Shown here: piece after piece, positions 15,001 to 21,000 of the stretch
Numbering within the stretch: position 1 is the first letter of the stretch
Layout: each line of letters begins with the position of its first letter
Source: Candidatus Cloacimonadales bacterium
GTDB taxonomy: Bacteria > Cloacimonadota > Cloacimonadia > Cloacimonadales > JAIOQZ01
Reading direction: 5' to 3'
DNA: 64,000 nt
Assembly: GCA_963662655.2 (NCBI GenBank)
Contig: CAXXTU010000002.1
Span: forward strand, 1,952,001 to 2,016,000
Made by a program: the position numbers

Positions 15001-18000
15001 TACCAAACAGCATGAACGCGTTCTCTGGAAGCGTACGCTTCCAACGCCGCCCCGCGCGGGAGCGCATCTCTCAACGACTCTCAACCGGGGCTCGAGAAAA
15101 TCCCGAATCGCTTAACTCATATTTAACACACACAAACTTCGAACAATTAAAAAATTGACAGACGAAATTGCGTTCACAATTTTGCAAAAAAATAAGAATG
15201 GAGCTTTCGCATGAGGAAACGGGTATCATTTCGTCCGGCAGTTATCAAATGCTTGCTTTTCTCACTCGTGCTTATCGTGCTCCTATCGTGCGCTCTCGAA
15301 GAAGAAATGCCGGTGCTGTACCATGTACCGTCCGGTTTTGAGACCTACCAGCTCGATTTCACGCCCTACACGAACAAGGGCTTCCTCTTCACGCCGCGCA
15401 GTTACAGCGGAAAATACAATTCTGTCGGACTCCTGGAATTCGATTACAACACGGAAGCGAATCTTGTCGAGATGACGCTGAACGAACTCACCGAGGAAGC
15501 GAGAAACGCCGGCCTGACTCCCATCACTTGTCTGATGTGGGAAGTTGAAGACCTCGATTATCAGGTGGTTCTCGATTACGCCTACCGCAAAGCGCTACAG
15601 ATGGGCGGCGACGCGATCGTGAGTTTCAAGCTGACCGCCGACACCAAAACACTCGTGAATCCAATCGATTATCCATCGGTCGAGATACCGGTCGTTCACG
15701 TGTCCGGATTTGTAATCAAACGGCATTATCCCTATCACACTGAGCCCTTACCGGATGAGCCGGAGGAGTAACGAAATGATCAGATAGCACGCATGTAAAA
15801 CGTATCGAGACGTATAACCTGGCGATGTTCCGGCTGAAAAAGGAGCAAATAATGAAGTACGAAATCCGTATGTTCAAGAACCAAGCCGATTACGACGTTT
15901 TGAGGAAATTCCTCCGCGATACTTTTGTCATGAATGGCTATCTGGAAAAAAACTGGAGCGTTCAACGCCTGGACTACCTCTACTGGCATGGATGGAAAAA
16001 CTGCATGGAGATACTGCCCGAGCAGGGAGCGCAACTCATCTGCGATGCAAACGGTACCCTGATCGGCGCGAACCTCATGGAAGGATTCGGAGTCGTCTAC
16101 ATGCAAACGCATCCCGAGTACATATCCCGGGAGCTACTCCAGTTCATGATAGAAAATGCGGAGAAAGCGCTCTTCAAATCATTCCCCGACAACGTGAGAA
16201 AGATCGTAATCTGGTGCGAACAAACCGACACACTGAAACAGGACGTTCTCTTCGAGCGTGGCTACGAAAAGAAGTCCTGGAACGATCGTTGCGGACGAAT
16301 CAGGCTCTCAGATATCGAACCCAAACCAATAATCCCCAGAGGTTTCACGATCCGCGCCCAAGGGGACATCGAAGAGACTCCCGCCCGAAGTTGGGCCTCG
16401 TGGCGCGCATTCCATCCCGATGACCCGGCCGAAAACTACCAGGGCTGGCAGTGGTACAGAAACATTCAGAGATCGCCGCTCTATCGACGTGACCTGGATA
16501 TCGTATCCGTTAAGGATGATGGAAAAATCGTCGGATTCACCACCGTGTGGTACGACGATGTTCTCCGTACAGCCTATTTCGAACCGGTTGGTGTAATCCC
16601 CGAATACCATCGAAAGGGTCTTGCGACGGCCATGATCACCGAAGGGCTGCGAAGACTTAAAGAGATGGAAGCGACGTGGGCTTACCTCGGATCAAACGAG
16701 GAACCTGCCCATACCGTTTACGCCAAATGCGGATTCAAAGAAGCGCTTCGATCCAACGGGTGGCTGAGAATTCTCTGAGCAAGCCTGGAAAAGCAAACAT
16801 AGGATATAATGAAGGGCGAAAGTAAAAAACTTTCGCCCTTGTATTTCACAGTAACAAAGATTTTTCGTTGACGGAAGAAAAGCGATCTTCAAAAGTAACG
16901 CAACGTGCGGGAGGATGGATCTGGTGGTCCGGCTGGTCTGCAAAGCCAGTAGTGGGCGGATAAAACCGTCCGTGGCAGGTTCGATTCCTGCCCTCTCAGC
17001 CATTTTTCAACACTCAAACCAGGCGATGCGTATGAAACAGGAAGAATTGAGAAAAATCCCCGGGGTCGATAAACTACTTACAGAACCATCCATCCAGAAT
17101 CTGGTACCGCAATTCGGTTTACCCATGGTGACGCAAGCGATCAGGCATATTCTGGATCAGGCGCGGCAGACCATCCTCGATGGCGGGAATGCCTCCAATC
17201 CCGAGACGTTGATCCGGGAGACAGAAGCGTTTTGCAAGCAAGCCGTTAAGCCATCGTTGATTCCCGTTATCAACGCGACGGGCGTGGTCATTCACACCAA
17301 TCTGGGCCGGGCACCTCTTGGCGAGTACGTTCTGCAGGAACTCACCCCCATCATCAAAGGGTACTCCAATCTCGAATACGACTTGTCCCAGGGAAAGCGC
17401 GGCAAGAGAGAGAGCCACATATCCAGGCTTCTGCGACAAGTGACGGAAGCGGAAGACGCGGTGGTCGTCAACAACAACGCTGCGGGACTCATGCTGAGCC
17501 TTAAAACGCTGGCCGAAGATAAGGAAGTGATCGTCTCTCGCGGCGAGCTGATCGAAATCGGCGGATCGTTCCGTCTGCCGGACATCATGGCCGCGAGCGG
17601 AGCGAAGATGGTTGAAGTCGGAACCACCAACAGGACGCGTATCAGCGATTACGAAAACGCGATCACTGATGATACTCGCGTGCTTCTCAAGGCACATCGT
17701 TCGAATTATTACATCGGGGGATTCACCGAGGAAGCGGAACTGGATGAGCTGGTCTCGCTAGCGAAGAAGCACAACCTTATTTTCATCTACGATATCGGCT
17801 CCGGCCTTTTGCGGAAACCGGAAGGACTTCCCCTTCAGAAAGAGCCGGATATCCTCAGCGCCATCAAGGCCGGTGTGGATATCGTCTGTTTCAGCGGCGA
17901 CAAGCTTCTGGGAGGCCCACAGGCGGGAATCATCGCCGGGAAACATGAATATGTCGGAAAAATCGCCAAAGCGCCCATGATGCGCGCGCTCCGCACGGGT

Positions 18001-21000
18001 AAAATGACGCTCGCGGCGCTCTCCGCAGTTATCCGGTGCTACATGGACGACGAAGCGCTGAAAATGAAACTCCCGCTTTTCCGCATGCTGAACCGTTCGC
18101 TGGAAGAGCTGCAACAAAACGCCGAATTTTTCACCCAAAAGCTTGCAGAGAAAGGCATCGCTTGCGAAATCGTGGCGAGCACCGCTTTTTGCGGCGGCGG
18201 AACCCTTCCCCATCTCGGCATTCCGAGCGTGGCGATAAATATCATTCCGCCAAGCCATAGTAAAACATGGGCTGAAGAAACGTGGTCGGCACTCATGCAA
18301 TCGGAGACGCCTGTCGTGGGCATATTGCGAGAAGGAAAGCTGCTTTTCGAGCTCTACACTTTGCAGACGGACGATTTTGACACCATCGCGAACGCTCTGG
18401 CCAAGATAAAGGATTGTACCTGCCCATGAAACACCTGATAATGGGAACCGCCGGTCATATCGACCACGGGAAAACAACGCTCATCGAGCAGCTCACCGGC
18501 TTCAACTGCGACACACACAAAGAAGAACAACTCCGCGGAATCACTATTCACCTCGGATTCAGCCACCTCGATCTTCCCGGTGGGAACAGCCTGGGGATCG
18601 TGGATGTACCTGGACACGCGGATTTCGTCAACACGATGGTCTCCGGCTCCAGCGGAATCGATTTCGTTCTTTTAGTTATCGCAGCCGACAGCGGCGTTAT
18701 GCCTCAAACGCGTGAGCATCTGCAAATCATTCAAACACTCGGAATCACGCACGGGATTATCGCGCTCACCAAGACCGATCTCGTTGACAACGAGCTTCTT
18801 GAATTCGCTGAAATCGATATCAGGGAGCTTGTGGAAGACACAAATCTCGAGGATGCGCCAATCGTCAAAGTGTCGGCAAGAACCGGGGATGGTATTCCAG
18901 ACTTGATTCAGGCAATCGACGAAATGTCCGAGATCGTGACTGAGAGAGGCAGGGGCGAAATTTTCAGGATGTTCGTGGATCGCATCTTCAACATCGCCGG
19001 GCATGGGACTGTTGTTACCGGCTCTGTGATCAGCGGCGAACTAAATCGCTCGGCCAATACCTATTTACTGCCTGTTGGCGAGAAACTTCGCGCCCGGCGA
19101 CTCGAACGTCACGGCAAGGAAGTCCAGAATATTTCCACTGGCGATCGCGCTTCGATAAACCTGGTGGGACTCGACATCGATCAATACAAGCGCGGTATGA
19201 TGGTCAGCGATCGCATTCTGCCCTCCACAACCATGATCGACGCGCGCCTGAAGCTTTATAAGCATGCCAGGCATCTCGGGCTGTGGTCGCAGGTGATCTT
19301 CTTGCTCGGTACATACACGGGACAGGCACGCATTCATCTGATCGACAAGGACAGGCTGGACGGCGGCGAAGAGGCCATCGTCCAGATACACCTCGATTCC
19401 CCTGCAGTCATCATGCACGGGGACCGTTTCGTGATCCGCAACACCTCCAGCGATCTCACGCTCGGCGGTGGCGAGGTGATAGACGCCCATCCGCTGCACC
19501 ATCGCAGAAGACCGGAAGACCTCGTTCAGAAACTGCACGAAGTCGCCCAGGGCGGGCTCCCCGAGCTTATCGCAACGGAAGTTCGCAAAAGGATAGCGCC
19601 CATCACCGGCGGCGAGCTTGCCGATCTCCTCAACTGCGCGGAGCGAGAGATCGAGAAAGCCGTCGCAGGAGAAATGCCCGAGGACATCGTAGTTCACACG
19701 ACGAAGACATCTGTCTATCTGTTGAGGCGAAGCAGGTATGACAAGCTTCGGTTGAAGATACTACGCTACCTCAATACCTACCACAAGCGAAATCCCCTGG
19801 ATGAGGGAGGTCGGCCATTCGAAGAATTGATGGGGATTTTCGGCGTCCACCGCGATTCAACAACGGAAGCCGTTATGCAGCTCATCCTCGAGCAGCTCGA
19901 TGTCGAAAAAGCAATCAAGCGAGTTGGACACACCTGGGCGCTGTTCGATCACAACGTGAAGCTGACGCCTCGTGACGTCGAGCAGATCGATTTTATCGAT
20001 AAGTACCTGCTTGATTCGCAGATGCACACACCGCTGTGGTCGGAACTGATACCCGATGCTCTCAATAAGGGTATTAGCGAGCTCAAGCTCAAGCAGATTC
20101 TGCAGTTGCTTGTTTTCAAAAACAAAGCCTACAATCTCGACGGAAATTTCATCCATGCGGATATCGTGGACAACAGCAGAAGAACATTGCTTCAATACCT
20201 CACCGAGCACGAAGAGGGCGCTTCTGTCGCAACCTTCAGAGACCTCATCGACGGCAACAGAAAGATTTGCCTGCTTCTGATCAACAAATTCGATCGCGAA
20301 GGAATTACCGTCCGCAAAGGCGACTATCGTACAATTACGCAGCGCGGCAGAGATATACTCGATCCAGCATAGACTTTACTTTTTTTGCTACTCTGATTCA
20401 ACTTCACACCCTCTTTGCGCGCTCATGAACGAGCGCGGCGGGGCGGCGTAGGAAGCGAAGGCTTCCTGAGAACGTATTCGACTCCTTTCAGACAATAGAA
20501 GAACCCGAATACGTTCTCGTGCGCGGAGCGCACACGCCGCCCCGCCGCGCGTGGGTGATCTCGAGATTGCAAGCGGGACATCGTAGCAAAAAAAAAGCCG
20601 CTACCTCTTTCGAGGAAGCGGCTGTAAAAAATGTTCTTTTCGTTACTTGAGAAGCATGATCTTACGAGTAACCGATTCTTTTTCTGTTGAGACTCTGAAG
20701 AGATAAACTCCACTGGAAACACTCTTCCCGGAATTGTCTCTACCGTCCCATACGACTTCTCGAAGCCCCTCATCCATCGGATTACCAGCAAATTCCTTCA
20801 CCATCTGACCACGCTGGTTGTAAATGGTAACCTTGACCACAGCGGGTTGATTCAGTCCAAATCGGATAGACGTTGTTGGATTGAACGGATTGGGGTATGC
20901 AGCCGTAAGATCGGCGCACAGGACATCCACGTCCGGTGGTGGCGGTGGCGGCGGTGGCGGTGGCTTGAGATCGACGATTGTTGTCTCGTGACCCGATTGT

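What a model noticed while it worked through the whole genome (the two positions that open the first line are those of the whole stretch)
16905..20372. Selenocysteine-type tRNA with a Cys (GCA) anticodon is the only selC of this genome; selD keeps a SECIS hairpin behind a [...]
The only tRNA-Sec-like gene of this genome (C2:1968909-1968998, directly upstream of selA g01704 and selB g01705) carries the cysteine anticodon GCA and discriminator A73, not UCA/G73; no UCA tRNA-Sec and no UGA-interrupted selenoprotein gene is present. The selenophosphate synthetase gene selD (g00786, C2:852515-853558, minus) has UGC at the Sec/Cys active-site codon 17 followed 8 nt later by an 8-bp hairpin (GUUAGGAC-CGUGU-GUCUUAAC) at the place of the SECIS of UGA-type relatives, so the SelA/SelB machinery here is predicted to insert Sec at a UGC sense codon.
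Evidence so far: ARAGORN + Rfam RF01852 54.5 bits: 6-bp anticodon stem, loop CUGCAAA, long variable arm, A7.C66 as in the UCA tRNA-Sec of sister species. Among 41 Cloacimonadales genomes all 10 genomes whose selD has TGA at this codon have a UCA tRNA-Sec, and all 10 genomes whose selD has TGC/TGT plus the hairpin (G000-G004, G006, G007, G017, G025, G039) have the GCA tRNA; the hairpin is kept with compensatory changes (A-U<->G-C with a Val->Ala change; U-A<->C-G). Other GCA-type genomes have selD forms without the hairpin. Sister genome G001 carries both a UCA tRNA next to a second selB and the GCA tRNA-selA-selB locus; G000 lacks the UCA tRNA/selB2. SelB tree of 30 sequences: the SelB next to the GCA tRNA f [...]
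(Added by a program. Inside this text positions count along the whole contig: contig position 1,952,001 is position 1 of the stretch shown here. "Call 12" and the like, gene names such as g00115 and contig names such as C1 are that model's own, and its searches are not shown. The text may have been shortened before it was handed on; [...] marks where a part breaks off. The agent that wrote the report below was given it as the finding of a first reader that could run no searches.)

Follow-up and report, generated by a model that had tools for sequence, protein, structure and literature searches.

The report
Selenocysteine tRNA reading cysteine codons
This bacterium's only selenocysteine transfer RNA reads the cysteine codon UGC instead of the stop codon UGA, so about five of its proteins probably carry selenium at sites that look like plain cysteine; the trick is known from another bacterium, but here many related lineages seem to use it for several genes at once.

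Summary
Real. The gene (16908-17002) is a 7/5 'Cloacimonetes-type' tRNA-Sec with a GCA anticodon, ahead of intact selA and selB; no UCA copy was found in G000. Two corrections. The discriminator is G73 with an encoded CCA, not A73 (an ARAGORN register slip), which argues against cysteine charging. And selD is not the only target: homology to UGA-type relatives gives four more G000 genes (three Omp28-related CxxC proteins, one CxxU protein, T9SS-like tails), each with UGC and a hairpin 19-22 nt downstream. In 151 sampled Cloacimonadales, 26 carry the GCA tRNA (7 families); the Omp28-related site is TGA-free in 37 of 37 rows from GCA-only genomes and TGA in 89 of 91 rows from other Sec-machinery genomes; hairpins covary; TGC is preferred at the Sec site (30 of 31). 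Four genomes hold both tRNAs and two SelBs. No biochemistry. Sec at cysteine codons by a GCA tRNA-Sec is published for Aeromonas (Mukai 2016, not readable here; it also names the Cloacimonetes type), and this scan found the tRNA before in two other genomes. The added value is the scale, the hidden selenoproteome and the dual-code intermediates.

The parts
16908..17002 (+). tRNA-Sec gene (selC), 95 nt, 7/5 Cloacimonetes-type fold: C1.A72 unpaired, 1-nt linker, 6-bp D stem with UGGU loop, 6-bp anticodon stem, 24-nt variable region, 5-bp T stem, G73, encoded CCA
   Evidence: MFE cloverleaf, z -2.75, 0 of 200 shuffles as stable
16940..16942 (+). GCA anticodon in loop CUGCAAA (UCA relatives: CUUCAAA)
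16999..17002 (+). discriminator G73 and encoded CCA end
   Evidence: G73 in 23 of 23 GCA and 34 of 34 UCA tRNAs
17032..18429 (+). selA, L-seryl-tRNA(Sec) selenium transferase, 465 aa
   Evidence: TIGR00474 547 bits, cut-off 267.9
18426..20372 (+). selB, Sec-specific elongation factor, 648 aa, with C-terminal winged-helix domains; start overlaps the selA stop (ATGA)
   Evidence: TIGR00475 322.3 bits, cut-off 242.25; PF09107 and PF09106
16812..16840 (+). 12-bp hairpin between the upstream acetyltransferase gene and the tRNA; probably a terminator (inferred)
   Evidence: not listed by the terminator scan

Best explanation
The gene is a genuine selenocysteine tRNA whose anticodon is GCA. Inferred steps: SerRS serylates it (G73, long variable arm), SelA converts Ser to Sec with selenophosphate from SelD, and SelB delivers it only to UGC (rarely UGU) codons followed by a 5-8 bp hairpin with a 5-nt G-U-containing loop about 16-22 nt downstream. 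All other Cys codons, and these too when selenium is short, are read by the ordinary tRNA-Cys (U73), so the protein is always finished, with Sec or Cys. Predicted G000 targets (contig C2): selD Cys17 (853508-853510, -); two tandem Omp28-related CxxC proteins, first Cys (1509817-1509819 and 1512151-1512153, -); a 933-aa CxxU protein, Cys93 (2369847-2369849, +); and, weaker, a 329-aa Omp28-related protein, second Cys (3420497-3420499, -). Shown: tRNA anatomy, machinery, codon switch at homologous Sec sites, conserved covarying hairpins. Inferred: charging, delivery, selenium content, the Cys fallback.
For: tRNA identical in architecture to UCA relatives, G73. Intact selA and selB, two selD, and no selU, yqeB or yqeC over cut-off in G000, so no other known use for selenophosphate. 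Omp28-related family, 150 listed rows: no TGA in 37 of 37 full rows from 21 GCA-only genomes and 9 of 9 from the three dual sisters; TGA in 89 of 91 rows from other genomes with Sec machinery. CxxU family: no TGA in 9 of 9 GCA/dual rows; TGA in 70 of 71 other rows covering the site. FdhA: no TGA in 17 of 17 GCA-only genomes; TGA in 17 of 20 other rows; TGC/TGT plus hairpin in 4 of 4 FdhA genes read. selD: 54 TGA rows, none from a GCA-only genome; 11 GCA genomes have TGY plus the CGUGY hairpin. Covariation: Omp28-related hairpin in 28 distinct TGY rows 92% paired, 4 of 7 pairs with two-sided changes, slid controls 36-41%; CxxU hairpin 82% paired, 5 of 6 pairs. Synonymous recoding keeps so long a stem with p<0.05 in 28 of 34 TGY rows, against 1 of 23 paralogs in Sec-less genomes and 0 of 6 paralogs in GCA genomes. 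TGC at the Sec position in 30 of 31 rows against 11 of 31 at the neighbouring Cys; paralogs 19 vs 18 of 30. Precedent in Aeromonas (PMC11415595, PMC10778597 passages).
Against: No biochemical, proteomic or expression data. Single hairpins are unremarkable alone (z -0.03, -0.80, -0.07, +0.10), and a genome-wide scan finds no excess behind Cys codons (12 of 12,861, 13.8 expected). The loop motif was refined after seeing the hits. Kin are not independent, so p values overstate. The Sec-less controls are a more distant paralog subfamily, not true orthologs. Five of 31 GCA-only rows have stems under 5 bp (G028 and four f6 copies). MvhD and peroxiredoxins, selenoproteins in some relatives, have Cys without a hairpin in G000. 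The competing tRNA-Cys could keep Sec occupancy low.
Confidence: 0.85

Rival explanations
1. Relic: the system no longer inserts Sec to a useful degree; targets are plain Cys proteins and the hairpins are leftovers or by-products of protein sequence.
For: UGC already encodes Cys, so loss of recoding is not lethal; single hairpins are not significant; MvhD and Prx are plain Cys in G000.
Against: tRNA, selA and selB are intact across 7 families; selB1 is 80-88% identical within the genus with low dN; hairpins survive synonymous-shuffle and covariation tests, also in low-GC genomes; TGC is held at the Sec site only.
Confidence: 0.07
2. It is a cysteine tRNA of the selC*/tRNA-ReC kind, charged by CysRS and delivered by SelB.
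For: GCA anticodon, a main CysRS identity element (PMC5389517 passage).
Against: G73, not U73; 7/5, not 8/4 with a bulge; it is the only selC and sits on selA; no UGA selenoprotein gene was found in G000 to rescue; a normal U73 tRNA-Cys and CysRS exist.
Confidence: 0.04
3. An indirect cysteine route: Ser-tRNA(GCA) is converted by SelA to Cys-tRNA with thiophosphate made by the NifS::SelD fusion.
For: G000 and several GCA genomes encode a cysteine-desulfurase::SelD fusion; SelA-type enzymes can use thiophosphate (recalled, not from a call).
Against: CysRS is present in 5 of 5 GCA genomes tested; the fusion also occurs in UCA genomes; SECIS-guided delivery to former Sec sites gives no gain if the product is Cys.
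Confidence: 0.04

Closest known systems
Aeromonas salmonicida tRNA-Sec(GCA) decoding UGC/UGU as Sec (Mukai et al. 2016; seen only through passages of PMC11415595, PMC10778597, PMC8124441)
   Same: tRNA-Sec with GCA anticodon, SelA/SelB/SelD, Sec at cysteine codons marked by a SECIS; 12-bp acceptor/T branch
   Different: Here the trait spans 26 of 151 sampled genomes in 7 families and at least four protein families, including T9SS-tailed proteins; four genomes hold a UCA system beside it
Cloacimonetes-type tRNA-Sec (Mukai 2016, as described in PMC5330540 section 10)
   Same: 7+5 fold, one linker nucleotide missing, G73 that 13-bp-based tools miss
   Different: The passage read gives no anticodon; whether Mukai 2016 or its supplement lists GCA copies and their targets could not be checked
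selC* tRNA-Cys / tRNA-ReC (PMC5389517, PMC7609411 passages)
   Same: tRNA-Sec-like shape with a GCA anticodon, used with a SelB
   Different: selC* has U73 and an 8/4 fold and carries Cys; this one has G73, 7/5, and lies on selA
Omp28-related selenoprotein (GOS_C, NF045500, UxxC; PMC13188914 table)
   Same: N-terminal domain of the G000 targets matches NF045500 (E 5e-14 and 1e-9), with UxxC in UCA relatives
   Different: Scores (52 and 38 bits) are far below the cut-off of 200; Sec site encoded by TGC; fused to a T9SS-like tail

Membership tests
Bacterial tRNA-Sec, Cloacimonetes type | Rfam RF01852 above gathering score | tested here: met
   54.5 vs 47 bits
Bacterial tRNA-Sec, Cloacimonetes type | 7+5 acceptor/T branch and 1-nt linker | tested here: met
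   pair 1:72 is C.A, unpaired in most relatives too
Bacterial tRNA-Sec, Cloacimonetes type | 6-bp D stem with 4-nt loop, 6-bp anticodon stem, long variable arm | tested here: met
Bacterial tRNA-Sec, Cloacimonetes type | G73 discriminator | tested here: met
   G16999 before CCA; 23 of 23 GCA tRNAs
Canonical UGA-decoding tRNA-Sec | UCA anticodon | tested here: not met
   GCA
Cys-codon Sec recoding (Aeromonas type) | tRNA-Sec with GCA anticodon plus selA, selB, selD | tested here: met
Cys-codon Sec recoding (Aeromonas type) | UGC/UGU at homologous Sec positions followed by a SECIS-like hairpin | tested here: met
Cys-codon Sec recoding (Aeromonas type) | Selenium found in the target protein | not testable with these tools
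   needs 75Se labelling or MS
selC* tRNA-Cys / tRNA-ReC | U73 discriminator | tested here: not met
   G73
selC* tRNA-Cys / tRNA-ReC | 8/4 fold with bulge in the T stem | tested here: not met
   7/5 with a perfect 5-bp T stem in 23 of 23
selC* tRNA-Cys / tRNA-ReC | GCA or UCA anticodon on a tRNA-Sec-like body | tested here: met
Omp28-related selenoprotein NF045500 (targets) | Score above the NCBIfam cut-off | tested here: not met
   52.3 and 38.1 vs 200 bits: relatives, not members

The most novel reading that the evidence does not exclude
A lineage-scale second selenocysteine code not yet described in this form: seven families of Cloacimonadales read Sec from UGC across several protein families (SelD, FdhA, Omp28-related and CxxU proteins with T9SS-like tails). 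Two old SelB-tRNA pairs coexist in some genomes; G009 appears to split its targets (UGA in selD, Prx and Omp28-related genes; no TGA in FdhA). In G000's genus the UGA pair is evolving fast in three sisters and is gone from G000. UGC+SECIS would act as a selenium-dependent Cys/Sec switch, and these selenoproteomes are invisible to all UGA-based annotation.
Probability: 0.4. Interest if true: 0.75.

Novelty: new member of a known kind. Interest (0 to 1): 0.55.

Why it matters
Selenoprotein finders look for in-frame UGA, so GCA-type organisms score as having machinery without clients, and their selenoproteins are filed as cysteine proteins. The comparative rule used here (tRNA anticodon, codon at the homologous Sec site, SECIS in register) recovers them. 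A sense-codon Sec code cannot truncate proteins when selenium is short, and for SelD it removes the need for Sec to make Sec. Genomes with both systems, and G000 with only the GCA one, make the route of a natural codon reassignment traceable. They also supply 12-bp-type SelA/SelB/tRNA parts of the kind used in selenoprotein engineering.

Tried and rejected
HdrA Cys587 (8-bp hairpin): no TGA in 22 of 22 listed homologs from four UCA genomes, rejected. Hydrogenase C-terminal Cys634: no TGA in any of 59 rows, rejected. MvhD, Bcp and AhpC of G000: no hairpin, treated as plain Cys. FdhA is not found in G000 or its three sisters. Hairpin-only genome scans cannot pick targets: no enrichment with broad motifs. 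Read-through scan of G000: 107 TGA candidates against 89 TAA and 86 TAG, none with a selenoprotein motif by eye; insensitive to Sec near protein ends. Thioredoxin family: no TGA among the rows listed for 61 genomes. No TGA client of the sisters' UCA cassette was found in seven families tested. GTDB-wide pattern scan: 24 of 56 loci are tRNA-Sec, all Cloacimonadota by title; the other 32 did not look like tRNA-Sec, and 11 of them checked with Rfam had no RF01852 hit; the pattern did not return Aeromonas, so it is not a census. No RNA holder listed. Promoter scan at chance level. PDB sequence search gave nothing significant. No structure model of the CxxU domain was obtained; Atlas hits were unnamed clusters. 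The careful SelB tree did not finish; only the quick tree is used.
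Full report
The tRNA. The window holds a tRNA-Sec-like gene (RF01852, 54.5 bits, gathering 47) with anticodon GCA at 16940-16942, followed by selA (17032-18429) and selB (18426-20372), both over NCBIfam cut-offs. 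ARAGORN ends the gene at 16998 and so reports A73 and a 4-bp T stem, but the sequence goes on G-C-C-A. Read from 16908 to 17002 it is a 95-nt 7/5 cloverleaf with C1.A72 unpaired, one linker base, 6-bp D and anticodon stems, a 24-nt variable region, G73 and CCA; the MFE fold agrees. All 23 distinct GCA and 34 distinct UCA tRNAs that my parser recovered from the loci have this length, fold and G73. This is the Cloacimonetes-type tRNA-Sec that PMC5330540 (section 10 read whole, plus passages) credits to Mukai 2016; it notes that tools assuming 13 bp miss G73. G000 also has a normal tRNA-Cys ending in U-CCA and a CysRS.

The only selC. It is G000's only listed RF01852 match over cut-off and the UCA pattern has no match. 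Three same-genus genomes (G022, G034, G040) carry a UCA tRNA divergent from a second selB after a gene that G000 also has (C2:2922294-2922890); G000 has no cassette there, and the cassette hits only this locus and EF-Tu-like genes. G000 is 98.95% complete in 2 contigs, so loss is likely but not proven. No selU, yqeB or yqeC passes cut-off in G000, and a read-through scan shows no clear UGA selenoprotein.

Distribution. Of 151 genomes of the order, 21 match the GCA pattern and 5 more were read from fetched stretches: 26 genomes in 7 of 13 families, 22 GCA-only and 4 dual (G009, G022, G034, G040). UCA was seen in 65 (56 by pattern; 9 read). Families f2 and f3 have no selA (0 of 56). GCA-only genomes keep selA and selB where the assembly is good. 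A GTDB-wide pattern scan gave 56 loci, of which 24 are this tRNA, all titled Cloacimonadota; 10 of the 24 lie next to selA.

selD. G000 has a stand-alone selD with TGC17 and an 8-bp hairpin, and a NifS::SelD fusion without one. Eleven GCA genomes have the stand-alone form with TGY and a CGUGY loop; 14 have only hairpin-less forms or no selD hit; G009 has TGA. The 54 selD rows with TGA come from 51 genomes, none GCA-only.

More targets. I compared all 2,882 genes called in G000 with 2.0 of 2.88 Mb of UCA-only G021 and the other loci, looking for Cys opposite TGA. Besides selD this gave a 739-aa protein (Cys26 of CxxC), a 329-aa paralog, a 933-aa protein (Cys93, CxxU in relatives), two peroxiredoxins without hairpins and two weak or terminal alignments that I set aside; a tandem paralog of the 739-aa gene came. 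The four non-selD targets carry 5-7 bp hairpins with GGUCN loops 19-22 nt after TGC. The three scanned end in T9SS/FlgD-like tails; the CxxC domain resembles the Omp28-related selenoprotein model NF045500, below its cut-off.

Across the order. Omp28-related family, 150 of 255 rows listed (3 partial, 5 from Sec-less genomes and 3 from genomes with no tRNA-Sec seen were counted apart): no TGA in 37 of 37 rows from 21 GCA-only genomes and 9 of 9 from the three sisters; TGA in 2 of 2 G009 rows and in 89 of 91 rows from other genomes (UCA seen in most, not assembled in a few). CxxU family, 83 rows: no TGA in 9 of 9 GCA or dual rows, TGA in 70 of 71 others that cover the site. G042, a UCA genome in an otherwise GCA family, has TGA in 3 of 3 copies.

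Is the hairpin selected? In 28 distinct TGY rows of the Omp28-related family, 92% of cells pair and 4 of 7 pairs change on both sides; slid controls give 36-41%. In the CxxU family (TGC and TGA rows together) 82% pair and 5 of 6 pairs covary. Synonymous recoding by local codon usage keeps so long a stem with p<0.05 in 28 of 34 TGY rows, 12 of 29 UCA-genome rows (the test sees pentaloops only), 1 of 23 paralogs in Sec-less genomes and 0 of 6 paralogs in GCA genomes. The Sec position is TGC, the Watson-Crick partner of GCA, in 30 of 31 rows, while the neighbouring Cys is TGC in 11 of 31 (19:0 discordant); paralogs show no such bias. Against: single hairpins are not unusual, broad genome scans show no excess, the motif was refined after the hits, and kin are not independent.

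History (weak). In the quick SelB tree of 36 rows the 10 SelBs of GCA-linked selA-selB loci form one group (SH-aLRT 89), next to a long-branched UCA SelB of family f12; families f7 and f8 are not in it and the careful tree did not finish. The sisters' selB2 is 57-64% identical between genomes whose selB1 is 88% identical (dN 0.365 vs 0.071 for G022-G040), and no TGA client was found in seven families. The sisters' UCA tRNA and G000's GCA tRNA are about 82% identical, so they are old paralogs. A dual ancestor with differential loss, or spread of the GCA operon, both fit.

Mechanism. Most likely Ser-tRNA(GCA) is converted by SelA and delivered by SelB to UGC codons marked by a SECIS, competing with Cys-tRNA; Cys is the default and Sec the upgrade. 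Every biochemical step is inferred.

What is in print. Passages of PMC11415595, PMC10778597 and PMC8124441 state that A. salmonicida uses a GCA tRNA-Sec to put Sec at UGC/UGU and that some bacteria use UGC/UGU; all cite Mukai 2016, which is not held here, nor is its supplement, and which may list these very tRNAs. Passages of PMC5389517, PMC7609411 and PMC8762117 define selC* and CysRS identity (U73). Seven searches listed no paper that ties GCA tRNA-Sec to Cloacimonadota targets; passages of PMC13188914 and PMC12013277 hold no mention of Cloacimon-, T9SS or Omp28. The library lacks most subscription papers. This scan reported the same tRNA in two other genomes (e1-3342686, e1-3310565) and T9SS-tailed selenoproteins in a UCA genome (e1-966883).

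Verdict. Real and well supported; a new member of a known kind. Interest 0.55, for the breadth of the switch, the hidden targets and the dual-code genomes.

Noticed in passing
G000 C2:264211-264298 (-), outside the window: tRNA-Leu with anticodon AAG and no GAG isoacceptor in the ARAGORN list, while CTC is used 28,693 times; implies inosine-34 in a leucine tRNA, uncommon in bacteria (recalled).
   Followed up: partly
L082:9721-11669; L083 and L084 likewise: The sisters' UCA tRNA-selB2 cassette: selB2 is about 45-50 aa shorter and evolves about five times faster than selB1, with no TGA client found.
   Followed up: partly
G009 (L111, L191, L325, L097): Both tRNAs and two selB; TGA in selD, Prx and Omp28-related genes but no TGA in FdhA: a candidate organism using two Sec codons at once. 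The FdhA codon itself was not read.
   Followed up: partly
L395:1501-2175 (G000 C2:2369625-2370299): The N-terminal CxxU domain of the 933-aa protein has no Pfam or NCBIfam match; TGA in 70 relatives; possibly an unlisted selenoprotein family with a T9SS-like tail.
   Followed up: partly
L104:3360-3460 (G042): UCA tRNA with a GCA-type body in a mostly GCA family, with TGA targets; possible reversion or retained ancestral state.
   Followed up: partly
window 20430-20560: GC-rich palindromic repeat after selB with 37 further partial matches in the genome; a related repeat lies where the sisters carry the UCA cassette. REP- or MITE-like.
   Followed up: partly
G000 C2:993555-995747 (L052): Cysteine desulfurase::SelD fusion, also present in many UCA and GCA relatives.
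   Followed up: partly
G000 C2:3266307-3266403 (-): ARAGORN 'tRNA-???' call that reads like coding sequence; probably false.
   Followed up: partly
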